DNA of 47,292 nucleotides from Chiloscyllium plagiosum (Eukaryota), in contig NC_057757.1 in the NCBI RefSeq assembly GCF_004010195.1, positions 7,907,845 to 7,955,136 of the forward strand, read 5' to 3'. Both the position numbers and the translations under genes were made by a program. Positions within the stretch are counted from its first letter, which is position 1; each line of letters starts with the position of its first letter. The notes below the pieces were generated by a model, which saw only the letters and a list, made by a program, of their open reading frames with translations, did not search any database and had not been told where the DNA came from. Positions 1-46,125 of the stretch are shown here, one piece after another.

Positions 1-655
1 CACTTTCAAGGAGCTATGAACCTGCACTCCAAGGTCTCTTTGTTCAGCAACACTCCCCAGGTACTTACCATTAAGTGTGTAAGTCCTGCCCTGATTGACT
101 TTTCCAAATTGCAGCACATCGCATTTATCTAGTCATAATATTATCCAGCATGGAAACAGACCCTTTGGTCCAACCAGTCCGTGCTGACCATAATCCCAAA
201 CTAAATTAGTCCCACCTGCCTGCTCCTGGCCCGTATCCCTCCAACCCTTTCCTATTCATCTATTTATCCAAAGTCTTTTAAACATTTTAATTGTCGTCAC
301 ATTCACCACTTCCTCAGGAAATGCATTCCACACTTGACCTGGCCTCTGTGTAAAACATTTGCCTCTCGTGTCGTTTTTAAATCTCTCTCCTCAAAAATGC
401 TCCCCCCAGTCATGAAACCCTTCGTCCTCGGGAAACGGCAATAATTCTATCTATACCTGTAATTGTGTCATAAAGGTCGCTTCTCAACCTCTGTCAGTCC
501 CAGCCTATCCAGCCTTTCTTTATAACGCAAGCCCCTCACACCCGGCAGCATCCTGGTAAGTCTCTTCTGATCCCTCTCCAGCTTAATAGTATCCTTCCGA
601 TGACGGGATGACCAGAACTGGAAGCATTACTCTAAACGAGGCCTCACCAATGTCA
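1..655 (-). mobile_element. CR1-type LINE ORF2/3' fragments (older, degenerate)
   Basis: Reverse complement resembles the CR1 3' copies at 16988-17480 and 44700-45472. Tail 'cagcatggaaacagaccctttgg' at ~146. Confidence 0.8.
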
Positions 656-957
656 TAGAATCATAGAGATGGAACAATTCATCCATGCCGACCAGATATC
701 CCAACCCAATCTATTCCCACCTGCCAGCACCCGGCCCATATCCCTCCAAACCCTTCCTATTCATATACCCATCCAAATGCCTCTTTAATGTTGCAATTGT
801 ACCAGCCTCCACCACATCCTCTGGCAGCTCATTCCATGCACATACCGCCCTCTGTGTGAAAAAGTTGCCCCTTAGGTTCCTTTTAAATCTTTCCCCTCTC
901 ACCCAAACCTATACCCTCTAGTTCTGGACTCCCCCCACCCCCAGAGAAAAGCCCCTG
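655..957 (-). mobile_element. CR1/HER1-type LINE 3' end
   Basis: ORF 711..902 (RGNFFTQRAVCAWNELPEDVVEAGTIATLKRHLDGYM) is the CR1 ORF2 C-terminus. Terminal ctatga repeats are present. Confidence 0.9.
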
Positions 958-4260: not shown

Positions 4261-4335
4261 GGACTCCGTCAACTAGACAGCAGAGTGAGAGGATAACCAG
4301 AACGGGACTCAAAGGGTGGGATGCATCGAGAGGGA

Positions 4336-5530
4336 GCGCCAGCGACCCAGGTTCGATTCCCGCCTCGGGCAACTGTCTGTGTGGAGTTTGCACATTCTCC
4401 CCCGTGTCTGCGTGGGTTTCCTCCGGGTGCTCCGGTTTCCTCCCACAGTCCAAAGATGTGCAGGTTAGGGTGGATTGGCCACGCTAAATTGCCCCGGAGT
4501 TTTCAGGGATGAGGAGGCTGGGTGGATTAGCCAGGGGAAGCAAAGGGTTAAAGGGATGGGGGTTGGGGGGGGGGGGTGCGGTACTTGATGGGCTGAATGG
4601 CCTGTCGGGATTGTCAGGAGGATGCATTCATTTTGAAACTGAGCTGCGAAGGGATTTCTTCGAGAGAGAGAGAGAGGAGTGAATGTTTGTGACTCTGTCC
4701 CCGAGTGGGTTACGGAGGCTACGTCAATGACGTAATTGAGAGGTGGTAGATTGATTTTTGAAATATCTGGGAGCTGAAGGACTAACAGGAGCTGGCTTGA
4801 ACGGCGAATGGAAGACTGGGGCAGTTTGCCCGCTAGCATGGCCAGGCCGGCACGAATGGCCTCCAACTGCTCCTTTTTCTTGAAGAACGGGACAAACATT
4901 GAAAGCGCTAGAGCAACTGTAGCACATCTTTCAGGGCTGAGAAAGCTGTGGTTCGTACACGGCTGGGAGAATCAGTGGTTAGCACTGCTGCCTCCCAGCG
5001 CCAGCCTCAGGGCGACTGTGTGTGGAGTTTGTACATTCTCCCCGTGTCTGCGGGGGTTTCCTCTGAGTACTCTGGTTTCCTCCCACAGTCCAAAGCTGTG
5101 CAGGTCAGGGTGGATTGGCCATGCTAGACTGCCCAGAGTGTTCAGGGATGTGTAGGTCAGGTGCATCAGTCAGGGGCAAATGTAGAGTAATAGGGGAATG
5201 GGTCTGGGTGGGTTACTCTTTGCAGGGTCGGTGTGGACTTGTTGGGCTGAGGTCTAGATTAGAGTGGTGCTGGAAAAGCACAGCAGGTCAGGCAGCATCC
5301 GAGGAGCAGGAAAATCGACGTTTTGGGCAAAAGCCCTTCATCAGGATTCCTGATGAAAGGCTTTTGCCCGAAACATCGATTTTCCTGCTCCTCAGATGCT
5401 GCCTGACCTGCTGTGCTTTTCCAGCACCACTCTAATCTAAACTCTGATCTCCAGCATCTGCACATCTCACTTATGCCTTGTTAGGCCGAAGGGCCTGTTT
5501 TCAAATTGTTGAGATTCTATGACTCTATTC
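4336..5530 (+). mobile_element. composite HE1 + CR1 tail + spacer + HE1 (copy 1)
   Basis: Near-identical inverted copy at 29831-30825 (ORF 4808..5155+ vs 29999..30304-; ORF 4465..4899- vs 30213..30497+). Confidence 0.85.
5251..5476. mobile_element. short Penelope-type element, inverted dimer with hammerhead-like cores
   Basis: ~92-bp arms (5255-5439) centred on 5347. ctgatga-aaggcttttgccc-gaaac at 5350-5374. Flanking duplication 5238-5250/5477-5489. Confidence 0.75.
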
Positions 5531-6611: not shown

Positions 6612-7769
6612 TGTTATGAAGGTGTGGGTGTACTGCATCATTAAGAGAGTTAAAAGTGAACACAACTACCTGACACAGCACCAAATGTTCTGAAAAAGAT
6701 ACTAGAATTAGATTGCCTACAGCGTGGAAACAGGCCATTTGGCCCAACAAGTCCATACCGACCCTCCGAAAAGTAACCCACCCAGACCCATTCCCCCACC
6801 CTATGTTTACCCCTGACTTATGTATTTAACCTACACATCCCTGAACACTCTGGGCAATTTAGCATGGCCAATCCACCCTAACCTGCAATATCCCTGAACA
6901 CTCTGGGCAATTTAGCATGGCCAATCCACCCTAACCTGTATATCCCTGAACACTCTGGGCAATTTAGCATGGCCAATCCACCCTAACCTGCACATATTTG
7001 TAGTGTGGGAGGAAACCGGAGCATCCGGAAGAAGCCCACACAGTCACCCGAGGTGGGAATCGAACCCATTTCCTGGCACTGTGAGGCAGCAGTGCTAACC
7101 ACTGAGCCATTGTGCCACCCCTTAATAATGTAACACTTGGTCAAACAACTTGATTAGTTGGTTGCCTGGAGACGACAAAGCAGATTTGAATTAGACCAAT
7201 CAGTTCAAATTATACCACAAAAAGATACCAAACTCCAATCCAGTTTCAATTGAGTATATTGAACAATCTTAAAAGCTAATGACACAATCCGATGCTTTGG
7301 GGGGGGGGGGTGGTATAAGGCTGGGAAAATTTAACAGTTGAGGGGAGAACTGCCAAGCCACCAGTATCTTCAGCCTGCCCAGAGAATAGCTCTCTTAAAG
7401 GTACCTTTATCGATCAGTTACCTGTGAAACAGAAATCCCTAGGAAGAAGAAAAGAAGACTGACAAAGAGAAGATTCAACATCTGGCTGGTTTCAAAAACT
7501 TGAATTTTTGGTAAATCTTAATGGGGGGGGGGGAGTGGGTTTATTGGACTAGTATTGTAGAAGGGAAAGGTAAAAGATAGGTTAGAGGAAGGAGTTGTAA
7601 ATAGTTATTAGTTAATTATTCTCAGTCAGACTTTAAGAAATAAAGTTGTTACTTTTTATTTTAAATAGTTCTTGACCTCTTGAATTTTCACAGATTACTG
7701 TACGGGATAAATCTTTTCTGTGCTGCTGGTTTAAATTAAGCAAGAGGGTTTACCTCGTTTCTAGTAACA
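6612..7769 (+). mobile_element. solo LTR
   Basis: TGTTA...TAACA termini, 4-bp flanks ctgg/ctag, CCAAT boxes, aataaa near the 3' end. Confidence 0.8.
6706..7121 (-). mobile_element. HE1-type SINE with internal ~53-bp triplication
   Basis: HE1 reverse complement. ctgaacactctgggcaatttagcatggccaatccaccctaacctg at 6841, 6894 and 6946. Confidence 0.9.
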
Positions 7770-10586: not shown

Positions 10587-10799
10587 TCAGGAAAAACCCA
10601 TCTGGCTCAGCAATGCCCTTTTGAAAAGGAAACTGCCATCCTTACCCAGTCTGGCTTACATGTGATTCATGGCAATGTGGTTGACTGTTAACTGACCCCT
10701 GGGCAATTAGGGATGGGCAGTGAATGCTGGCCGAGCCAGCGATGCTCACACATTGTGCGTGAACAAGAAAAAATCAATGTCATAGATCTCACTCCAACG

Positions 10800-11320
10800 T
10801 GATGTACCTCATCCACGCGTGTGAGAAACTGCGCCTCAACCTTTTGATATTGTGAGTCGATCTTTGCAGAATATCCTTTCTGAAACTCCTTCAGTAAAGA
10901 CTGACAAGTCATTCATAATCCGAGATCTTTCATTCCTCAAAGAATGATTTCGACGTATTGCAGTTGGGCACCATGAGTTGACCATCCATCTCGCCAATAG
11001 CGCCGTCCCTATTCGACCTATAAGGTGTTACCTATCATGCTTTTCCATCGATGATTTATCTGTTTGAATTTCCGCTATGAATGCCAAAAACCTGTTTATC
11101 AGCCTCTGTCAGATAGGATTCTGCATAAAATATCTGCCGTTGCCTGGTATCTCCCTTGTCTGTGGTTAAACTGTATCTGATCGAATACGGTCTGAAGTAT
11201 TGAATGCAAGTTAGTGTTTTTGTAATTTTCTTCGAATTGCGAAGGGAAACTGACGGTTTGAGATCTGTTCCAAGCGTAAACCTTCGCCCCACAATCCAGG
11301 AGCTCCTCATGTGCACTCCT
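10800..11320 (-). mobile_element. Gypsy/Ty3 pol relic (RNase H C-terminus to integrase N-terminus), frameshifted
   Basis: WIVGRRFTLGTDLKPSVSL...CIQYFRPYSIRYS and QGRYQATADILCR correspond to the Gypsy motifs FTLETDHKPL...RIQRFRLRL.RY...PGK...ADALSR. Confidence 0.8.
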
Positions 11321-11429
11321 CGTTGCGAGGTTCTCTCGTTTGGACTGCAAGAGAATAAATCGCTGGCTTTCTAGATGGCATGAAGGGAGTGCACAGGGTG
11401 ACTCAGAAGCTCAGGCGAAAGGATCTCTA

Positions 11430-12220
11430 AAATACCACAAATAAATGCTGCAAATAATCAAGAAAGCTAATGGAATGCTGGCCTTTAAATTGAGAGAGTT
11501 GGAGTACCAGGATGCAGACATTATGCTGCAGTTATACAAAACCCTGGTTAGACCCCACTTGGACCACTGTGAAGGACATCACACCTTGGGAAGAACAGAT
11601 TGACCCTGGAGGGAGCCCAACATAGATTTATCCTATGGAACCTCAGGGATTAAGTTATGAAGAGAGGTGATATCAATTTTCTCCAGAATTTTAGTAGGTG
11701 AAGGGGTAATCTGATCGACGTCTTCAGGATATTAACGGGAAAGACAGGGTTGATAAAGACCAGTAGTTTCCACTGGTTGGGGAATCTGCACTGTCTGAGA
11801 ATTAGAGCCAAATGGTTCAGGGGAGATAAGGCAGAAGTGGGAGGTGCTGGAGATTAGAGTCAAGATGAGAGTGGTGCTGGAAAAGCACAGCAGGTCAGGC
11901 AGCATCTGAGGAGCAGGAGAATCAACGCTTCAGGCCGGGTCATGGGGACAGTGCTGAGCAGGAAGGTTGGAACTGGGGTAAGGTGGGGGGAGGGGAAATG
12001 AGGAAACTGCTGAAATCCAATTCCACGCACACACATCGATGTTTGGAGTGTCAGCAGATGCTGGATCAGTTGTTAGTTTTCAATCTGAGAGAGATACGTT
12101 TTTGTTCATCCAAGGTGTTAAGGGATATGGGTCAAAGACAGGTGTTAGGCCACACATCTGCCACAATGTCAGTGAATGCTAGAGCCTGAACCAGGCGCTA
12201 AATGGCCTCCCCGTCTTCCA
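11430..12220 (+). mobile_element. degenerate CR1 3' fragment containing a short Penelope-type insert (~11845-11940)
   Basis: aaagctaatggaatgctggcc...aaaaccctggttagacccca is CR1 ORF2-like. gtggtgctggaaaagcacagcaggtcaggcagc matches 5263 onward. Confidence 0.7.
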
Positions 12221-18959: not shown

Positions 18960-19740
18960 ACAAGGTGGCAGATGACTGTCGGAACGGCTGTACATTGGGA
19001 GAGGGGAGTGTGCAGTGGGACCTGGGTGCCCTTGTGTACCACTCACTGAAGGTGACCGAGCAGGGGGTAGTAGGAAGGCAAATGGGATGTTGGCCCTCGC
19101 TGTGGGAGGGTACAGGAGCAGAGGGATGTGTTGCTGTAGTCATACAGGGCCTTGGTGAGACCGCCCCGAGAATTGTGGGTGTTGCAGGTTTGGTCTCCTT
19201 TTCTGAGGAAGGATGCTCTCTCTCTCTCGAGGGAGGACAATGAAGGTTTCCCAGGCTGATTCCCGGGGGATGGCGGGAATGGTGTATGAGGAGAGATTGA
19301 CTCAGGATTGTTTTCACTGGAGTTCAGGTGAGCGAGGGAGGGATCTCATAGAGACGTATAAAATACTAACAGGGCTAGACAGGTTAGATGCAGGGAGGAT
19401 GTTCCCGATGGTGGGTGTGTCCAGGACCGGGGTCACCGTCTGAGGATTCAGGGTGGACTGTTTCGGACGGAGATGAGGAGACATTTCTTCACCCAAAGTG
19501 CGGGCAGCCTGTGGCATTCATTACCACAGGAAGCAGCTGGTGCCCAAAACATTGAATGTATTCAAGAGACGGCTGGATATAGCACTGGGGGGGGGGGGGG
19601 GGCGAATGGGGTCAAAGGTCAGGGGGAGAAAGCAGGGTGAGGGTCTTGAGTCAGATGATCAGCCAAGATGGTGGTGAATGGCGGAGCCAGGCCTGAAGGG
19701 CCGAATGGCCTCCTCCTGCTCCTGTCTTCGATGTTTCTGT
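18960..19740 (+). mobile_element. CR1 3' fragment (inverted near-identical copy at 37013-37677)
   Basis: GRDLIETYKILTGLDRLDAGRMFPMVGVSRT is CR1 ORF2. Tail gggccgaatggcctcctcctgc. Confidence 0.85.
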
Positions 19741-21240: not shown

Positions 21241-21436
21241 AGAGCTGAAAATGTGTTGCTGGAAAAGCGCAGCAGGTCAGGCAGCATCCAGGGAACAGGA
21301 GAATCGACGTTTCGGGCATAAGCCCTTCTTCAGGAAACGCAATTCTCCTGTTCCCTGGATGCTGCCTGACCTGCTGCGCTTTTCGAGCAACACATTTTCA
21401 GCTCTGATCTTCAGCATCTGCAGCCCTCACTTTCTC
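21241..21436. mobile_element. short Penelope-type element, inverted dimer, 17-bp TSD
   Basis: Minus strand cctgaagaagggcttatgcccgaaacgtcgattc (21301-21334). cctctgatcggttcaga at 21227-21243 and 21436-21452. Confidence 0.8.
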
Positions 21437-21775
21437 CTCTGATCGGTTCAGACTTGAATGCAATAAATTTTGGGAAAGCAGAGAGCTCTCTTAGGGAATC
21501 CATGCTTCATCAACTTCATTGACTTCCTTTTACCCTTGTGGCAATTAACAATGTCCCGTTTCCAGACCTTTCCCGGCCACTGTAATCAAATTAACTGGCT
21601 GGGCTCTCTTCTTCAGAACAAAGGCATAACATTTGCAATTCTCCAGTCCCTGGAGATCGGACAATTACGGCCACTTCCGCCTCCTTCAATATCCGTGGAT
21701 TACCCCATTGTCCATGACAAGTACCAACAGTCCATCCAATTCCTCATCCTGATGGATTTGGAACCCTTCTCATGT

Positions 21776-21985
21776 CATAGAGTCATAGAGATGTACAGTA
21801 CGGAAACAGACCCTTCGGTCCAACCCGTCCATGCCGACCAGATATCCCAACCCAATCTAGTCCCACCTGCCAGCACCCGGCCCATATCCCTCCAAACCCT
21901 TCCTATTCATATACCCATCCAAATGCCTCTTAAATGTTGCAATTGTACCAGCCTCCACCACTTCCTGTGGCAACTCATTCCATCC
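21776..21985 (-). mobile_element. CR1 3' end (young)
   Basis: Near identical to 16990-17190. Confidence 0.9.
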
Positions 21986-25971: not shown

Positions 25972-26503
25972 TAGGAGTCACAGGTAGATAGGATAGTGAG
26001 GAAGGCTTTTGGTATGCTTTCCTTTATTGGTCAGAGTATTGAGTACAGGAGTTGGGAGGTCATGTTGTGGCTGTACAGGACGTTGGTTAGGCCACTGTTG
26101 GAATATTGCGTGCAATTCTGGTCTCCTTCCTATCGGAAAGATGTTGTGAAACTTGAAAGGGTTCAGAAAAGATTTACAAGGATGTTGCCAAGGTTGGAGG
26201 ATTTGAGCTATAAGAGGGCATAGGTTTAGGGTGAGAGGGGAAAGATATAAAAGGGAACTAAGAGGCAACTTTTTCACGCAGAGGATGGTGCGTGCATGGA
26301 ATGAGCTGCCAGAGGAAGTGGTGGAGGCTGGTACAATTGCAACATTTAAGAGGCATTTGGATGGGTATATGAATAGGAAGGGTTTGGAGGGATATGGGCT
26401 GGGTGCTGGCAGGTGGGACTCGATTGGGTTGGGATATCTGGTCGGCATGGATGGGTTGGACCAAAGGGTCTGTTTCCATGCTGTACATCTATATGTCTCT
26501 ATG
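25972..26503 (+). mobile_element. CR1 3' end with internal deletion
   Basis: RKAFGMLSFIGQSIEYRSWEVMLWLYRTLVRPLLEYCVQFWSP...; jumps gagctata|agagggcatagg. Confidence 0.92.
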
Positions 26504-29830: not shown

Positions 29831-30825
29831 TTAGATTCCCTACGGTGTGGAAACAGGCCCTTCGGCCCAACAAGTCCACACCCACCCTCCGAAGAGTAAC
29901 CCACCCAGACCCATTCCCCTATTACTCTACATTTACCCCTGACTGATGCACCTGACCTACACATCCCTGAACACTCTGGGCAGTCTAGCATGGCCAATTC
30001 ACTCTGACCTGCACAGCTTTGGACTGTGGGAGGAAACCAGAGTACTCAGAGGAAACCCCCGCAGACACGGGGAGAATGTACAAACTCCACACACAGTCGC
30101 CCTGAGGCTGGCGCTGGGAGGCAGCAGTGCTAACCACTGATTCTCCCAGCCGTGTACGAACCACAGCTTTCTCAGCCCTGAAAGATGTGCTACAGTTGCT
30201 CCAGCGCTTTCAATGTTTGTCCCGTTCTTCAAGAAAAAGGAGCAGTTGGAGGCCATTCGTGCCGGCCTGGCCATGCTAGCGGGCGAACTGCCCCAGTCTT
30301 CCATTCGCCGTTCAATCCAGCTCCTGTCAGTCCATCAGCTCCCAGATATTTCAAACATCAATCTACCACCTCTCAATTACTTCATTGACGTAGCCTCCGT
30401 AACCCACTCGGGGACAGAGTCACAAACATTCACTCCTCTCTCTCTCAAAGAAGAAATCCCTTCGCAGCTCAGTTACAAAAAGAATGCATCTTCCTGACAG
30501 GCCATTCAGCCCATCAAGTACCGCACCCCCCCCAACCCCAATCCCAATGCCAATCCCAATCCCCCCCATCCCCCTAACCCTTTGCTTCCCCTGGCTAATC
30601 CACCCAGCCTCCTCATCCCTGAAAACTACAGGGCAATTTAGCATGGCCAATCCACCCTGACCTGCACATCTTTGGACTGTGGGAGGAAACCGGAGCACCC
30701 GGAGGAAACCCACGCAGACACGGGGAGAATGTACAAACTCCACACACAGTCGCCCTGAGGCTGGAATCGAACCTGGGTCCCTGGCGCTGTGTGAGGCAGC
30801 AGTGCTAACCGCTGAGCCACCCCAA
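29831..30825 (-). mobile_element. composite HE1 + CR1 tail + spacer + HE1 (copy 2)
   Basis: Inverted near-identical copy of 4336-5530, without the 5251-5476 insert. Confidence 0.85.
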
Positions 30826-30829
30826 GTTG

Positions 30830-31420
30830 AGAAACGAACGTAATAGATGTTTATACACAAGAATAAGGGGCGTGGATGGAGTTCATGGTCACTGTTTTCT
30901 GTCCCTGAGGATGGGGGGATTTGAAGCCAAAGGGAGCACATTTTTGAAACGCGAGAGATTGGTAAAAAGATACGGAGAGCAATTTTTTAACGCAGAATGT
31001 GGTTTGTGTGTGCACTGAACTTCCTGAGGAAGCGGTGGGTGCGGGTACAGTGACAGCATTCAAAAGACATTTGGCTGCGTACATTGCAGAGAAATGCCTG
31101 GAGGATTAAGGGCCAGGAGCAGCGAGATGGGACTCGGTCAGTTTGGGATGACGGTCGTCATGTGGAAAGCACAGCCAGTCAGACACCATCCAGGGAGCAG
31201 GAGAGTCAATGTTTCCGGCACAAGCTACTCAACAGGAATCTTACGCCCAAAACGTCGACTCTCCCGTTCCTCGGATGCTGCCAGACCTGCTGTGCTTTTC
31301 CAGCAGCGCACTCTTGACGCTGACCTCCAGCAGCAGTAGTCCTCACTATCTCTCTGTTATGGTCGGTACATACGGGATGGGCCGAACATTCTGTTCCTGA
31401 GCTGTGCGAGTCTTTAAAAG
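30830..31420 (+). mobile_element. degenerate CR1 3' end with a short Penelope-type insert (~31160-31350)
   Basis: CR1 ORF2-end similarity. The tail resumes at ~31360 and runs directly into the satellite. Confidence 0.7.
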
Positions 31421-34400
31421 AGAGTCATAGAGATGGGGTCAGCATGGACGGGATGGGCCGAAGGGTCTGTTTCCGTGCTGTGTGACTCGAGAAGATAGAG
31501 TCATAGAGATGGGGTCCGCATGGACGGGATGGGCCAAAGGGAGTGTTTCCGTGTTGTGTGACTCTATAAGCTGGAATCATAGAGATGGGGTCAGCATGGA
31601 CGGGATGGGCCGAAGGGTCAGTTTCCGTGCTGCATGAATGTATAAGATGGAGTCATAGAGATGGGGTCAGCATGGACAGGATGGACCGAAGGGTCTGTTT
31701 CGGTGCAGTACGACTCTTTAAAAGAGAGTCATAGAGATGGGGTCAGCATGCACGGGATGGGCCAAAGGGAGTGTTTCCGTGTTGTGTGACTCTATAAGTT
31801 GGAATCATAGAGATGGGGTCAGCATGGATGGGATGGGCCGAAGGGTCAGTTTCCGTGCTGCATGAATGTATAAGATGGAGTCATAGAGATGGGGTCAGCA
31901 TGGACAGGATGGACCGAAGGGTCTGTTTCGGTGCAGTACGACTCGATAAGATGGAGTCATAGAGATGGGGTCAGTATGGACGGGATGGGCCGAAGGGTCT
32001 GTTTCCGTGCTGTATGACTGTATAAGATAGAGTCATAGAGAAGGGGTCAGTATGGCAGGATGGACCAAAGGGTCTGTTTCCGTGTTCTGTGACTCTATAA
32101 GATAGAGTCATAGAAATGGGGTCAGCATGGACAGGATGGGCCGACGGGTCTGTTTCCGTGTTGTGTGACTCTATAAGATACAGTCATAGAGATGGGGTCA
32201 GCATGGACGGGATGGGCCGAAGGGTCTGTTTCGTGCTGTAAGACACTATGAGATAGAGTCATAGAGATGGGGTCAGCATGGACGGGATGGGCTGAAGGGT
32301 CTGTTTCCGTGCTGTGCGACTCTATAATAGGTAGAGTCATAGAGATGGGGTCAGCATGGACGGGATGGACTGAAGGGTCTGTTTCCGTGTTGTGTGGCTC
32401 TATAAGATACAGTCATAGAGATGGGGTCAGCATGGACGGGATGGGCCGAAGGGTCTGTTTCGTGCTGTAAGACACTATGAGATAGAGTCATAGAGATGGG
32501 GTCAGCATGGACGGGATGGGCTGAAGGGTCTGTTTCCGTGCTGTGCGACTCTATAATAGGTAGAGTCATAGAGATGGGGTCAGCATGGACGGGATGGACT
32601 GAAGGGTCTGTTTCCGTGCTGTGTGACTGGATAAGATAGAGTCATAGAGATGGGGTCAGTATGGACAGGATGGGCGAAAGGGCCTGTTTCCGTGCTGTGT
32701 GGTGCTATAAGATAGAGTCATAGAGATGGGGTCAGTATGGACAGGATGGGCCGATGGGGCTGTTTCCGTGCTGTGTGATGCTACAAGATAGAGTCATAGA
32801 GATGGGGTCAGCATGGACGGGATGGGCCGAAGGGTCAGTTTCCGTGTTGTGTGGCTCTATAAGATGAAGTCATAAAGATGGGGTCAGCAGGGACGAGATG
32901 GGTCAAAGGGCCTGTTTCCGTGTTGTGTGAATCTATAAGATGGAGTCATAGAGATGGGGTCAGCATGGGCGGGATGGGCTGAAAGGTCTGTTTCCATGCT
33001 GTGCGACTCTATAAGATAAAGTCATAAAGATGGGGTCAGCATGGACGGGATGGGCCGAAAGGCCTGTTTCCATGCTGTAGGACTCTATTAGATAGTGCCA
33101 TAGAGATGGTGTCAGCATGGACGGGATGGGCCGAAGGGCCTGTTTCCGTGCTGTAGGACTCTATAATAGGTAGAGTCATAGAGATGGGGTCAGTATGGAC
33201 AGGATGGACCGAAGGGTATGTTTCCGTGCTGTGTGAATCTATAAGATGGAGTCATAGAGATGGGGTCAGCATGGAAAGAATGGGCTGAAGGGTCTGTTTC
33301 CATGTTGTGTGACTGTATAAGGTAGAGTCATAGAGATGGGGTCAGCATGGACGGGATGGGCTGAAGGGTCTGTTTCCGTGTTGTGTGACTCTATAAGATA
33401 GAGTCATAGAGATGGGGTCAGTATGGACAGGATGGGCCGAAGGGTCTGTTTCCGTGCTGTGTGACTCTATAAGATAGAGTCATAGAGATGGGGTCAGTAT
33501 GGACGGGATGGGCCGAAGAGTCTGTTTCCATGTTGTGTGACTGGATAAGATAGAGTCATAGAGATGGGGTCAGCATGGACGGGATGGGCCGAAGGGCCTG
33601 TTTCCGTGCTGTGCGACTCTATAAGATAGTGCCATAGAGATGGGGTCAGTATGGACAGGATGGGCCGAAGGGTCTGTTTCCCTGCTGTAAGAGTCTATAA
33701 GATAGAGCCATAGAGATGGGATCATTATGGACCGGATGGGCCGAAGGGCCTGTTTCCATGTTGTGCGACTCTATTAGGTAGTGCCATAGAGATGGGGTCA
33801 GCATGGACGGGATGGGCCAAAGGGTCTGTTTCCGTGCTGTGTGACTAGATATGATAGAGTCATAGAGATGGGGTCAGTATGGACGGGATGGTCCGAAGGG
33901 TCTGTTTCGTGCTGTAAGACTCTATGAGATAGAGTCATAGAGATGGGGTCAGCATGGACGGGATGGGCCGAAGGGTCTGTTTCCGTGCTGTGTTAATCTA
34001 TAAGATGGAGTCATAGAGATGGGATCAGTATGGACAGGATGGACCGAAGGGTCTGTTTCCGTCCTGTGTGACTGGATAAGATGGAGTCATAGAGATGGGG
34101 TCAGCATGGACGGGATGGGCCGAAGGGCCTGTTTCCGTGCTGTAGGATTCTATAAGAAGTAGAGTCATAGAGATGGGGTCAGTAAGGACGGGATGGGCTG
34201 AAGGGGCTGTTTCCATGCTGTGCGACTCTATAAGATAGTGCCATAGAGATGGGGTCAGTACGGACAGGATGGGCCGAATGGCCTGTTTTCGTGCTTGTGA
34301 CTGGATAAGATAGAGTATTAGAGATGGGGTCAGCATGGACAGGATGGGCCGAAGGGCTTGTTTCCGTGTTGTGTGACGCTATAAGATAGTGCCATAGAGA

Positions 34401-36878
34401 TGGGGTCAGATGGACGGGATGGGCCGAATGGCCTGTTTCTGTGCTGTGCGACTCTATACGATAGTGCCATAGAGATGGGGTCAGTATGGAGTGGATGGGC
34501 CGAATGGCCTGTTTTCGTGTTGTGTGACTGGATAAGGTAGAGTCATAGAGATGGGGTCAGCATGGATGGGATGGGCCGAAGGGTCTGTTTCCATGTTGTG
34601 TGACGATATAAGATAGAGTCATAGAGATGGGGTCAGCGTGGACAGGATGGGCCGAAGGGCCTGTTTCCGTGCTGTGTGACGCTATAAGATAGAGTCATAG
34701 AGATGGGGTCAGCATGGACGGGATGGGCCGAAGGGCCTGTTTCCGTGCTGTGTGACTCTATAATAGGTAGAGTCATAGAGATGGGGTCAGTATGGACGGG
34801 ATGGACTGAAGGGTCTGTTTCTGTGCTGTGTGACTGGATAAGATAGAGTCATAGAGATGGGGTCTGTATGGACAGGATGGGCCGAAGGGCCTGTTTCCGT
34901 GCTGTGTGACTCTATAAGATAGAGTCATAGAGATGGGGTCAGTATGGACGGGATGGACTGAAGGGTCTGTTTCCATGCTGTGTGACTGGATAAGATAGAG
35001 TCATAGAGATGGGGCCAGTATGGACAGGATGGGCCGAAGGGCCTGTTTCTGTGCTGTGTGGTGCTATATGATAGAGTCATAGAGATGGGGTCAGTATGGA
35101 GTGGATGGGCCGAAGGGCCTGTTTCCGTGTTGTGTGGCTCTATAAGATGAAGTCATAAAGATGGGGTCAGCAGGGTCGGGATGGGTCGAAGGGCCTGTTT
35201 CGGTGTTGTGTGAATCTATAAAATGGAGTCATAGAGATAGGGTCAGCATGGACGGGATGGGCTGAAGGGTCTGTTTCCATGCTGTGCGTCTCTATAAGAT
35301 AAAGTCATAAAGATGGAGTCAGCATGGACGGGATTGGCCGAAGGGCCTGTTTCCGTGCTGTAGGACTCTATTAGATAGTGCCACAGAGATGGTGTCAGCA
35401 TGGACAGGATGGGCCGAAGGGCCTGTTTCCTTGCTTTAGGACTCTATAATAGGTAGAGTCATAGAGATGGTGTCAGCATGGACGGGATGGGCCGAAGGGT
35501 ATGTTTCCGTGTTGTGCGAGTCTATAAGATGGAGTCATAGAGATGGGGTCAGCATGGACGGGATGGGCTGAAGGGTCTGTTTCCGTGCTGTGTGACTCTA
35601 TAAGATAGAGTCATAGAGATGGGGTCAGTATGGACAGAATGGGCCGAAAGGCCTGTTTCCGTGCTGTGTGACTGGATAAGATAGAGTCATAGAGATGGGG
35701 TCAGTATGGACGGGATGGGCTGAAGGGTCTTTTTCCGTGTTGTGCTGATGTATAAGATAGAGTCATAGAGATGGGGTCAGCATGGGCGGGATGGGCCGAA
35801 GGGCCTGTTTCCGTGCTGTAGGATTCTATAATAAGTAGAGTCATAGAGATGGGGTGAGTAAGGACGGGATGGGCTGAAGGGTCTGTTTCCATGCTGTGCG
35901 ACTCTATAAGATAGTGCCATAGAGATGGGGTCAGTATGGACGGGATGGGCCGAAGGGTCTGTTTCCGTGTTGTGTGACTGGATAAGATAGAGTCATAGAG
36001 ATGGGGTCAGCATGGACAGGATGGGCTGAAGGGCTTGTTTCCATGTTGTGTGACAATATAAGATAGAGTCATAGAGATGGAGTCAGCATGGACGGGATGG
36101 GCCGAAGGGTCTGTTTCCATGTTGTGTGACAATATAAGATAGAGTCATAGAGATGGGGTCAGTATGGACGGGATGGGCCGAAGGTCCTGTTTCCGTGCTG
36201 TGTGACTGGATAAGATAGAGTCATAGAGATGGGGTCAGCATGGACAAGATGGGCCGAAGGGCTTGTTTCCATGTTGTGTGACAATATAAGATAGAGTCAT
36301 AGAGATGGAGTCAGCATGGATGGGATGGGCCGAAGGGTCTGTTTCCATGTTGTGTGACAATATAAGATAGAGTCATAGAGATGGGGTCAGCATGGACGGG
36401 ATGGGCCGAAGGTCCTGTTTCCGTGCTGTGCGACTCTATAAAGATAGCGCCATAGAGATAGGGTCAGCATGGACACGATGGGCCGAAGGGTCTGTTTCCG
36501 TGCTGTAAGACTCTATAAGATAGAGCCATAGAGATGGGATCATTATGGACAGGATGGGCCGAAGGGCCTGTTTCCGTGTTCTGCGACTCTATTAGATAGT
36601 GCCATAGAGATGGGGTCAGCATGGACGGGATAGGCCGAAGGGTCTGTTTCCGTGTTGTGCTGATGTATAAGATAGAGTCATAGAGATGGGGTCAGCATGG
36701 ACCAGATGGGCCGAAGGGTCTGTTTCCTAGTTGTGTGACACTATAAGTTAGTGCCATAGAGATGGTGTCAGTATGGACGGGATGGGCTGAAGGGTCTGTT
36801 TCCGTGCTGTGTGACTCTATAATAGGTAGAGTCATAGAGATGGGGTCAGCATGGCTGGGATGGGCCGATGGGTCCGTG
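31421..36878 (+). repeat. tandem satellite, 76-bp unit (some 75/79), ~71 copies, CR1-3'-tail-derived
   Basis: Unit agagtcatagagatggggtcagcatggacgggatgggccgaagggtctgtttccgtgctgtgtgactctataagat, starting at 31421, 31497 and so on. The core matches the CR1 tail at 12893-12950. Confidence 0.97.
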
Positions 36879-37012
36879 TCGGGGAGGTAGTGTTGCGTCT
36901 TTGCTGTATTGAGGAGGTTAGATGCGAGCTCCCAGTCAATACGGGGTTTTACACTTGAAACGTTTTCCCTGTGTCTGTCTCTCAGATGCTGCCTGTCTGA
37001 ATGAATTTGAAA

Positions 37013-37677
37013 CACAGGAGCAGGAGGAGGCCATTCGGCCGTTCAGGCCTTGTTCTGCCATTCACCACCATCTTGGCTGATCATCCGACTCAAGAGCCTC
37101 ACCCTGCTTTCTCCCCCTGACCTTTGACTCCATTCGCCCTCCCCCCCAGTGCTATATCCAGCCGTCTGTTGAATACATTCAATGTTTTGGGCACCAGCTG
37201 CTTCCTGTGGTAATGAATGCCACAGGCTGCCCGCACTTTGGGTGAAGAAATGTCTCCTCATCTCCGTCCGAAACAGTCCACCCTGAATCCCCAGACGGTG
37301 ACCCCTGGTCCTGGACACACCCACCATCGGGAACATCCTCCCTGCATCTAACCTGTCTAGCCCTGTTAGTATTTTATACGTCTCTATGAGATCCCTCCCT
37401 CACTCACCTGGACTCCAGTGAAAACAATCCTGACTGAGTCAATCTCTCCTCATACACCATTCCCGCCATCCCCCGGGAATCAGCCTGGGAAACCTTCACT
37501 GCCCTCCCTCGAGAGAGAGAGAGCATCCTTCCTCAGAAAAGGAGACCAAACCTGCACACCCACAATTCTCTGGGCGGTCTCACCAAGGCCCTGTATGACT
37601 ACAGCAACACATCTCTCTGCTCCTGTACCCTCCCACAGCGAGGGCCAACATCACATTTGCCTTCCTGCTGCCCCCTG
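37013..37677 (-). mobile_element. CR1 3' fragment, inverted copy of 19061-19727
   Basis: Near-identical reverse complement, including idiosyncratic tracts. Confidence 0.85.
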
Positions 37678-39020: not shown

Positions 39021-40019
39021 GTCCCATTCTCCAGCCTTATCTCTGTAACCCTCTAAACCCATCGCTTTCAAATATGTCTCCAGCTCTCTTGTACCTGCCT
39101 CCAATACGCATTCTCAGCAGCACGTCCCAAATCCTAATAAGTGAAGAAGTTTCTCATCATCTCACTCCCCACCCTCTGGCTGACAATCTGGAGGTTGTGA
39201 CCCTTAGTTACTGACCAGTGGAAACAAGATTGTTCTTTACCCTGTCAGACATTTTGAACATCTCAATCAGGTCACCCCTTACAGAATAAGGATCAATCGG
39301 CGTGGAGCTGGAAAAGCACCATACTCTTCTCCTGCCCCTCGGATGCTCTGCCTTTCCCCTCTGATCTCCAGTGTCTGCAGCCCTTACTTTCTCTGAGGAG
39401 AAATAGGTCAATCTCCTCTCTAATTATTCCTTGTAAAATCCGTCATTCCTGTTTTGGAGATGTCGGTGTTGGACTGGGGTGTACAAAGTTACATGGCATG
39501 GTACGTTGGGGAAACCGAGCAGAGGCTACGGCAATGGATGGGCACCGCACAACAATCAACAGACAGGAGGGTTCCCTCCCAGTTGGGGAACACTTCAGTG
39601 GTCCGGGACATTCGACCTCGGACCTTCGGGTGACCATCCTCCAAGGTGGACTTCGGGACAGGCAGCAGAGGAAAGTGGCCGAACAGAGGCTGATAGTTAA
39701 GTTCGCTACCCATAACACAGACACTCACACTCACACATGCATCCTCTCAGAGACTTAGACCACTCTACACTCACGCACACACATACTCTCTCTCTCACCC
39801 TCACAACCCCACCCCAGACAGACAGACACACACACACCCAAAGACCCACATGCACACATATACAAATATTTTGCGGGGTGAATTTGTACTTGGAGGGTTA
39901 CTTTGCTCAAAAACTGCATGAATTCATGTAAAACTCTGTTATCTCACTTTTTAGCTGAGAATCAATCTAAACATCATGGCATAGACAGAGAATACAAGGG
40001 GCTAACACCTTCAACATAT

Positions 40020-40148
40020 TCCTGAAGAAGGCCTTATGCCCGAAACGTCGATTCTCCTGCTCCTTGGATGCTGCCTGACCTGCTGCGCTTTTCCAGCAAC
40101 ACATTTTTCAGCTCTGATCTCCAGCATCTGCAGTCCTCACTTTCTCCT
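40020..40148 (+). mobile_element. short hammerhead-core element inserted in the Penelope relic
   Basis: cctgaagaaggccttatgcccgaaacgtcg. accttcaac is duplicated at 40007 and 40149. Confidence 0.7.
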
Positions 40149-45894: not shown

Positions 45895-46125
45895 GACCTA
45901 TCACCTTTACCCCCACCTCTATCCGCCAATTGCACTCTCAGCTACTTTCTCCCCAGCCCCACCCCCTCTCCCATTTACCTTTCCACCCCTGAGGCTCCCA
46001 GCCTCATTCCCGATGAAGGGCTTTTGTCCGAAATGTCGATTTTCCTGCTCCTCGGATGCTGCGCTTTTCCAGCGCCACTCTAATCTTGACTCTAATCTCC
46101 AGCATCTGCAGTCCTCACTTTTGTC
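45895..46125 (+). mobile_element. Penelope-type 3' piece with decayed hammerhead core
   Basis: ttcccgatgaagggcttttgtccgaaatgtcg followed by the same arm as 5380-5470. Confidence 0.65.

What the first reader, a model, noticed from the sequence alone, without database searches (positions are those of the whole stretch)
31421..36878. 5.45-kb satellite built from the CR1/HE1 3' recognition tail, with two hairpins per 76-bp unit
Seen: ~71 tandem units. Each joins the forward LINE tail (ggtcagcatggacggg..gggccgaagggtctgtttccgtgctg..tgactctat) to the reverse complement of the LINE terminus (atagagtcatagagatg, compare 21779-21793). This gives hairpin A, cagcatgga...tcc(a/g)tgctg enclosing ggccgaagggcc, and hairpin B, tgactctat-aag-atagagtca. 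The array starts exactly where a CR1 relic's own tail ends (31360-31420). Established: LINE 3' stem-loops are the cis signals recognised by the RT and are shared by partner SINEs. Inference: a fold-back at a LINE 3' end seeded in-situ amplification. If transcribed, the RNA would present dozens of ORF2p docking sites (a decoy, a retrotransposition substrate or a small-RNA source).
Basis: partly seen in the sequence, partly recalled or inferred. Interest (0 to 1): 0.72.

Follow-up and report, generated by a model that had tools for sequence, protein, structure and literature searches.

The report
Shark minisatellite from a LINE tail
A 5.5-kb tandem repeat in a shark genome grew out of the hairpin-shaped end of a common jumping gene; it is real and also turns up in a second species, but it looks like an ordinary, probably neutral minisatellite rather than a working RNA decoy.

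Summary
The array is real: 71 full 76-bp units plus two edge units (31359-36878), 86% alike. Contigs across unit junctions occur in a DNA run of one species that also matches the left flank and in a run of a second species. Each unit is a forward CR1-type 3' tail plus 17 bases of reversed LINE terminus. That geometry fits one founding template switch, then slippage and unequal exchange (3- and 8-unit block duplications). Hairpin A is inherited from the LINE, but the array shows no compensatory change in it and has lost a U-U mismatch kept in 23 of 24 dispersed tails. Hairpin B is the most mutated part, fully paired in 7 of 71 units. No read of one poly(A) library ran through a junction (weak test). 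One oddity remains: pair-breaking transitions are rare in hairpin A (1 of 12 against 16 of 22, post hoc p 0.0008), pair-breaking transversions are not. Verdict: new member of a known kind, the transposon-derived minisatellite. The scan's notes hold no earlier report of this repeat.

The parts
30932..31156 (+). Old CR1-type LINE 3' relic, probable founder; breaks off just before or inside the 5' arm of its tail hairpin
   Evidence: 70.2% over 228 nt to the copy at 186-404; 151 of 217 columns to the copy at 26241-26503; covered by an organism-A contig with 4 differences over 30860-31264
31166..31352 (.). Palindromic dispersed repeat inserted between the relic's body and its tail; left boundary uncertain by about 13 bases
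   Evidence: 72.5% to 5275-5456, also matches in reverse; 82% to 40033-40146; alignment
31359..31434 (+). Unit 0: degenerate edge unit with a LINE-type 5' end, plausibly the relic's own tail
   Evidence: 58 of 76 to the consensus; carries the array-type A at position 19 and the reversed terminus
31435..36841 (+). 71 full tandem units of 75-78 bp, mosaic of recurring variants
   Evidence: four-gamete test positive in 89 of 105 pairs of common variants
31440..31480 (+). Hairpin A in unit 1 (unit positions 6-14 with 38-46, and 18-25 with 30-37, 4-base loop): the LINE/SINE tail stem-loop
   Evidence: folds; same stem, with compensatory pairs, in dispersed tails
31483..31503 (.). Hairpin B in unit 1 (positions 49-57 with 61-69): palindrome made by the forward and reversed termini; the array's mutation hot spot
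   Evidence: 12.8% variation per site; less paired than column-permuted null, p about 0.004
31495..31511 (-). Reversed LINE terminus, 17 bases, repeated at every junction
   Evidence: exact reverse-strand match at 21777-21793, one mismatch at 655 and 16987
32118..32575 (+). Recent 3-unit duplication (units 10-12 and 13-15)
   Evidence: mean distance 1.67 against a null minimum of 4.24, p 0.001
32728..33337 (+). 8-unit block (units 18-25) duplicated 30 units downstream
   Evidence: mean distance 5.4, p 0.009; unit-by-unit distances 3-7
35011..35620 (+). Partner block (units 48-55)
36842..36878 (+). Truncated last unit; no reverse-oriented LINE body follows
   Evidence: no self-BLAST hit over 36880-37010

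Best explanation
A probably single-locus, probably neutral minisatellite derived from a CR1-type LINE 3' tail. Step 1 (shown): the unit is a forward tail plus a reversed terminus, the same junction in every unit, next to an old LINE relic. Step 2 (inferred): one replication error at that tail founded the first dimer. The polymerase copied past the terminus, ran back along the other strand for 17 bases, then rejoined upstream of the hairpin at a 3-base microhomology (a four-point template switch with the return point upstream of the exit point). A tiny reverse insertion of a second LINE end followed by slippage would give the same result. Step 3 (inferred): the 17-bp palindrome so created was trimmed to 9 bp by loss of one 8-base terminal repeat and is still eroding, as DNA palindromes do. 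Step 4 (shown as a pattern, mechanism inferred): the dimer grew to about 72 units by slippage, unequal exchange and conversion, leaving block duplications and mosaic variants. Hairpin A is a passenger inherited from the LINE. Its shortage of pair-breaking transitions is more likely mutational (deamination or repair in folded single strands) than selective, because pair-breaking transversions are not depleted.
For: One phase and one junction in 71 of 71 units. 3-unit and 8-unit block duplications, p 0.001 and 0.009; neighbours at lag 3 closer than in any of 5000 shuffles. Four gametes in 89 of 105 variant pairs. Degenerate edge units. Stems not less variable than unpaired sites; hairpin B less paired than null. 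Excess pairing of hairpin A disappears when the hairpin-B columns leave the permutation pool (p 0.22-0.43). No compensatory double change in hairpin A, while 24 dispersed tails show C-G to T-A (11) and A-T to G-C (10) swaps. U-U mismatch lost. Junction bins about 2000- to 4000-fold below tail-core bins in summed contig depth in both species (a rough contrast only, the tool warns it is no copy number). No RNA read through a junction. No host exon found by Pfam (1 hit of 175 frames, a reverse transcriptase fragment) or by a micro-exon scan. The template-switch geometry with point 4 before point 1 is described in PMC7954356 (passages).
Against: Pair-breaking transitions in hairpin A: 1 of 12 possible seen, against 16 of 22 harmless ones at G and T (Fisher p 0.0008; stratified p 0.0002), and every common variant in hairpin A keeps pairing on the + strand. 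With all columns permuted, hairpin A is more paired than null (p 0.007). An organism-B contig differs from units 0/1 by 1 base in 95, so the unit has been stable across a species split of unknown age. A few RNA reads reach 31504-31526 (summed depth 2.8; ratio to the tail core about 24 times the ratio in DNA run X1); this is unexplained. The RNA test rests on 2% of one poly(A) single-cell library. The founding junction carries two extra G that neither origin model explains exactly.
Confidence: 0.77

Rival explanations
1. The array makes a + strand RNA whose repeated hairpin A is kept by selection and binds LINE ORF2 protein (decoy) or feeds small-RNA silencing of the host's most abundant LINE and SINE.
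For: Deficit of pair-breaking transitions. 95% of hairpin-A cells paired on the + strand against 78% on the - strand. The + strand folds far better (-33.3 against -18.4 kcal/mol). Unit present in two species. In zebrafish L2 elements ORF2 recognises stem and loop (PMC4176376, passages), and the 4-base loop is mostly kept here.
Against: Pair-breaking transversions are not depleted (26 of 68 against 10 of 42). No compensatory change. The paired-fraction signal vanishes under the stricter null. C-to-T and A-to-G changes keep + strand pairing by definition, so the strand asymmetry is partly built in. No junction-crossing read among 1748 laid. About 72 units would add little to the very large number of dispersed tails, which are themselves present in that RNA library.
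Confidence: 0.1
2. The repeat is spread or extended by the LINE's own reverse transcriptase: array RNA is copied back into the genome, so it is a mobile tandem element and the second species may carry it at other loci.
For: The unit holds the cis signal shared by LINE and SINE. No long organism-B piece was laid on the left flank, and three bins there had zero depth, so orthology is not shown.
Against: Junction form rare in both species. In-register block duplications and no poly-terminal tracts. The unit has one terminal 8-mer and lacks the U-U mismatch; in eel UnaL2, an L2-clade analogue, a U-U mismatch and the terminal repeat are needed for efficient retrotransposition (PMC1636434, abstract and passages). 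The organism-B contig shares rare unit-0/unit-1 letters (1 difference in 95), which points to the same locus.
Confidence: 0.06
3. Assembly artefact: a chimeric path through LINE tails or a mis-expanded repeat.
For: The window has N gaps elsewhere. No long read was available, and no contig spans more than about three units.
Against: Only 2 identical pairs among 71 units. Diverged block duplications. Junction-spanning contigs in two species, with tandem 'goes back' joints of period 75-77 in organism B.
Confidence: 0.03

Closest known systems
Transposon-derived minisatellites and satellites (Alu- and B1-derived minisatellites; chicken HinfI repeat and centromeric repeats from CR1; common cetacean satellite from the L1 3' end), as listed in PMC6947457 and PMC9659126 (passages and tables)
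   Same: A short piece of a retroposon, often its 3' end, duplicated between short repeats and expanded at the DNA level into a head-to-tail array with interspersed variants.
   Different: Here the unit is just the recognition stem-loop and includes a reversed copy of the terminus. It is 76 bp, and appears to be tens of units rather than a large heterochromatic family. No shark case came up in the searches run.
HE1 V-SINE / HER1 LINE shared 3' tail of sharks and rays (table rows in PMC3747384, passage in PMC4824008; the original 1999 paper seen only as a reference title)
   Same: The unit's first 57 bases match the tail shared in this window by LINE relics (one with a reverse transcriptase fragment upstream on the same strand) and by SINE-like copies.
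   Different: No tRNA-like head, no LINE body, one terminal 8-mer only, U-U mismatch closed, tandem instead of dispersed.
Short-range template-switch mutations, four-point model (PMC7954356, passages; PMC8794818, abstract)
   Same: A short reverse-complement segment next to its template, creating a hairpin; events with point 4 before point 1 also create a direct repeat.
   Different: Described as single events in apes and in RNA genes; here the product would have seeded a 72-unit array, and the forward arm has since lost 8 bases.
Eel UnaL2 and zebrafish ZfL2 3' tails (PMC1636434, PMC4176376, passages)
   Same: Stem-loop with an internal U-U mismatch followed by a short terminal repeat, as in the dispersed shark tails here.
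   Different: L2 clade, other loop sequence; the requirements were measured there, not for this shark element.

Membership tests
Transposon-derived minisatellite | Head-to-tail array of a 10-100 bp unit, tens of copies | tested here: met
   76 bp, 72.3 copies
Transposon-derived minisatellite | Unit homologous to part of a dispersed transposable element | tested here: met
   40-41 of the first 46 consensus positions match four LINE tails in the window; reversed terminus exact at 21777
Transposon-derived minisatellite | Turnover by slippage, unequal exchange or conversion (block duplications, mosaic variants) | tested here: met
Transposon-derived minisatellite | Length polymorphism between individuals (VNTR) | not testable with these tools
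   no long reads; contigs span about three units at most
High-copy satellite DNA family | Thousands of units or many loci | tested here: inconclusive
   junction bins 193-246 against 549,152-809,209 for the tail core in X1, and 1,112-1,600 against 3.6-5.6 million in X11; points to tens of units, but summed contig depth is not a copy number, and no whole genome was held
SINE (HE1 / V-SINE) | tRNA-derived head with polymerase III boxes and a central V domain | tested here: not met
   the whole unit is accounted for by tail and reversed terminus
SINE (HE1 / V-SINE) | 3' tail shared with the partner LINE | tested here: met
Functional stringent-type LINE 3' signal | Stem-loop with conserved internal mismatch | tested here: not met
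   T19 opposite T36 in 23 of 24 dispersed tails and about 98% of laid depth in both species, but A19 in 71 of 71 units
Functional stringent-type LINE 3' signal | Repeated terminal unit at the RNA 3' end | tested here: not met
   one 8-mer per unit, internal, often mutated
Functional stringent-type LINE 3' signal | Binding by ORF2 protein | not testable with these tools
   needs a binding or retrotransposition assay
Structured non-coding RNA | Compensatory base changes in stems | tested here: not met
   none in hairpin A; one two-sided Watson-Crick swap in hairpin B, in 1 of 71 units; no Rfam match in the window
Structured non-coding RNA | Transcription | tested here: inconclusive
   0 of 1748 laid reads run through a junction in X17 (2% of one poly(A) single-cell run); X18 gave 0 reads, no test
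CR1 clade (HER1) identity of the donor LINE | Reverse transcriptase phylogeny or match to a named consensus | tested here: inconclusive
   RVT_1 fragment, E 0.00029, below Pfam's cut-off; Atlas gave only unnamed chordate clusters; the clade name is recalled

The most novel reading that the evidence does not exclude
Hairpin A is actively kept foldable on the + strand across about 72 units and two shark species, so the locus is a host-kept array of LINE recognition hairpins that, when transcribed in germ cells or embryos, binds ORF2 protein without being a good template (closed U-U hinge, no terminal repeats) or seeds small RNAs against the dominant LINE/SINE pair. It would be a satellite-type decoy against retrotransposition.
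Probability: 0.09. Interest if true: 0.75.

Novelty: new member of a known kind. Interest (0 to 1): 0.27.

Why it matters
As read here it is a clean example of how a minisatellite is born: the founder relic, the inverted junction and the later block duplications can all be read in one place. It also shows a new palindrome eroding next to an inherited hairpin. It could serve as a polymorphic marker and as a natural test of how single-strand folding biases mutation. It would matter much more if the array were shown to make RNA that binds LINE protein, since a host decoy built from a retrotransposon's own recognition signal did not come up in the searches run; the evidence here gives that about one chance in ten.

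Tried and rejected
Whole-genome search: no genome is held for this window, so copy number and other loci could not be counted directly. Rfam: 0 matches in the window. Sequencing-run index: no RNA holder listed; this says nothing about expression. Run X18: 0 reads laid, no test. Simple fold-back of the present unit: rejected, the reversed part mirrors 8 bases that the forward part lacks. Tail-to-tail pair with a full second LINE: no reverse LINE body at the right edge; a very short insertion remains possible. Gene conversion from the dominant dispersed tails as the source of array variants: rejected for the 5' part, since 0 of 71 units have T19, including the 9 with A23. Host gene: 175 frames against Pfam gave 1 hit, a reverse transcriptase fragment; only frames of 50 residues or more, mostly outside self-repeats, were sent. 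A scan for micro-exons like those noted 44 kb away found 13 candidates and no Gly/Tyr/His series. So the direction of any transcription is unknown and the mutational explanation of the transition deficit is untested. G-quadruplex as driver: four G-runs in 28 of 71 units, mean G4Hunter-type score 0.55, 6% of windows at 1.2 or more; weak, not pursued. Fewer intact hairpin-B units than chance: not seen, 5 observed against 4.9 expected. ESM Atlas on a LINE ORF2 end: unnamed clusters only. A pre-array paralogue in the window: the two inverted duplications beside the array do not include the founder. Literature searches for this repeat: searches found no description; the library lacks most subscription journals, Repbase and Dfam were not available, and no supplementary files were read, so genome-paper repeat libraries may already hold it.
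Full report
Observation. Tandem Repeats Finder gives one array at 31372-36874, period 76, 72.3 copies, 86% matches, no indel excess. Splitting at the junction motif gives 71 full units from 31435 to 36841 (56 of 76 bp, 8 of 78, 6 of 75, 1 of 77), a degenerate unit 0 at 31359-31434 (58 of 76 to the consensus, counted on the alignment) and a truncated unit ending near 36878. Units are 91.7% identical to their consensus and 86.4% to each other, with 2 identical pairs. The + strand is strongly G-rich (GC skew about 0.4).

What the unit is made of. A search for the tail core found 30 sites outside the array interior: 28 dispersed and 2 at the array edges. Four LINE-type tails match 40-41 of the first 46 consensus positions. 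One LINE relic in the window has a reverse transcriptase fragment upstream of such a tail on the same strand (RVT_1, E 0.00029, below the curated cut-off). The last 16 bases of the unit plus the next G are the exact reverse complement of the LINE terminus at 21777-21793. An earlier, unchecked note calls this genome a bamboo shark.

Surroundings. An old LINE relic (30932-31156; 70% to the copy at 186-404) runs towards the array on the + strand. It is cut off from unit 0 by a palindromic dispersed repeat (31166-31352). No reverse LINE body follows the right edge. No host exon was found: 1 Pfam hit in 175 frames, 13 micro-exon candidates without a coherent series, 0 Rfam matches.

Is it real? I laid four runs on the left flank and the first units (30860-31530). 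In DNA run X1 (organism A) one contig matches 30860-31264 with 4 differences and five listed contigs cover unit junctions or hairpin B; X1 could be the assembly's own individual. In X11 (organism B, another study) contigs cover the junctions, one with 1 difference over 31420-31514, and joints go back by one period (68 plus 8 letters between, 71 plus 6, 74 plus 1). So the tandem form exists in a second species. Orthology is suggested by shared rare letters but not shown, as no long organism-B piece lay on the flank. Summed contig depth over junction bins is 193-246 against 549,152-809,209 over the tail core in X1, and 1,112-1,600 against 3.6-5.6 million in X11. The tool warns that this is no copy number; as a rough contrast it fits tens of units, not a large family. 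The true length is unverified.

How it grew. All units share one phase and one junction. Units 10-12 repeat as 13-15 (p 0.001), units 18-25 repeat as 48-55 with 3-7 differences each (p 0.009), and lag-3 neighbours are closer than in any of 5000 shuffles. Common variants recombine freely: four gametes in 89 of 105 pairs. This is the pattern of slippage, unequal exchange and conversion in minisatellites (PMC6947457, passages).

How it started (inferred). A direct repeat joined by a short reversed segment is what the four-point template-switch model gives when the return point lies upstream of the exit point (PMC7954356, passages). The model needs a founder with the longer terminus and a later loss of one 8-base repeat from the forward arm, because the reversed part mirrors bases that today's forward part lacks. 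A very short reverse insertion of a second LINE end followed by slippage gives the same product, and I cannot separate the two. The junction has a 3-base microhomology and two unexplained extra G.

A near-consensus unit folds as described (-33.3 kcal/mol, z -5.1). Variation per site is 8.2% in the outer stem of A, 12.1% in its 4-pair inner stem, 12.8% in stem B and 4.8% at the other sites. Hairpin B is fully paired in 7 of 71 units and is less paired than column-permuted nulls (p about 0.004). Hairpin A keeps 95% of cells paired when G-U is allowed (p 0.007 with all columns permuted, one of 12 tests), but p is 0.22-0.43 once the hairpin-B columns are left out of the pool. There is no compensatory double change in A. 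By contrast, 24 dispersed tails show two-sided swaps at two pairs (11 and 10 copies), so the stem was under selection in the mobile lineages. I left out 4 of the 28 dispersed sites as poor or N-cut matches. Position 19 is T, opposite T36, in 23 of those 24 (25 of 28 with the four, read off) and in about 98% of laid depth in both species, but A in 71 of 71 units. The array has thus closed a U-U mismatch; in eel UnaL2 a U-U mismatch and the terminal repeat are needed for efficient retrotransposition (PMC1636434, abstract and passages). That is an analogy from another clade, not a test.

The result against my reading. Using the full predicted hairpin A and leaving out CpG sites and positions 49-69, pair-breaking transitions are seen at 1 of 12 possible sites against 16 of 22 harmless sites at G and T (Fisher p 0.0008; stratified p 0.0002). 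The test was chosen after looking at the data. Pair-breaking transversions show no deficit (26 of 68 against 10 of 42, p 0.15). Selection on an RNA fold should remove both classes. A mutational cause fits better: the missing changes are deamination-type changes at bases that are Watson-Crick paired on the - strand too, so protection or repair in a folded - strand would give this pattern. That is inference; I could not find the direction of transcription or replication.

Expression. In X17 (poly(A) single-cell, about 2% read) 1748 reads were laid, 1745 only in part, with loose ends that continue as dispersed LINE or palindromic-repeat sequence. None ran over the end of the stretch, depth was 0 at 31527-31530 and 0.09 at 31412-31434, and the unique flank had none. 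A few reads reach 31504-31526 (summed depth 2.8, a ratio to the core about 24 times that in X1) without entering the next unit; they may be fold-back or tail-to-tail molecules and remain unexplained. One library of unknown tissue is a weak test. X18 gave no reads and is no test.

Comparison and verdict. It works like, and meets the tested features of, a transposon-derived minisatellite; CR1-derived repeats in chicken and an L1 3'-end satellite in cetaceans are listed precedents (PMC9659126 and PMC6947457, passages and tables). It is not a SINE and fails two features of a working 3' signal. Searches found no description of this repeat, and the scan's notes hold none; repeat libraries and supplements were not seen. 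New member of a known kind, interest 0.27; the decoy reading keeps about 9%.

Noticed in passing
window 29862-30788 and 4335-5250; window 37011-37677 and 19061-19728: Both flanks of the array have inverted duplicates elsewhere in the window (92.9% over 940 nt; 95.4% over 673 nt). They span several old repeats, so they are local segmental duplications; the region looks prone to rearrangement.
   Followed up: partly
window 31166-31352, 5263-5480, 11845-11930, 21257-21440, 40033-40146, about 45990-46125: A very abundant roughly 200-bp palindromic dispersed repeat; its core had the highest summed depth in both species and was present in the RNA run. Possibly linked to Penelope-type elements (recalled, not tested).
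   Followed up: no
window 39480-39720: A reading frame that resembles the end of a GIY-YIG endonuclease of Penelope-type elements (recalled resemblance; Pfam gave no hit).
   Followed up: partly
window 6837-6997: A 52-bp piece of a SINE-like element repeated three times at 95%: a second, very young tandem duplication inside a retroposon.
   Followed up: no
window 655-700: A reverse LINE tail in which most of the hairpin is missing right after the terminus, suggesting that this stem-loop is prone to deletion or switching.
   Followed up: no
array, unit positions 1-4, 16-18, 21-23, 29-31: The junction and the A19 change give four G-runs per unit (28 of 71 units keep all four), a weak G-quadruplex motif absent from the young LINE tail.
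   Followed up: partly
window 33140-33197 and 34129-34186: Array variants create an acceptor-like and a donor-like site 36 bases apart on the + strand; probably chance.
   Followed up: no
window 10790-11400: A stretch not repeated within the window, with CpG observed/expected 0.78 at 11001-11500 and an exon-like look on the - strand; frames of 63-104 residues gave no Pfam hit.
   Followed up: partly
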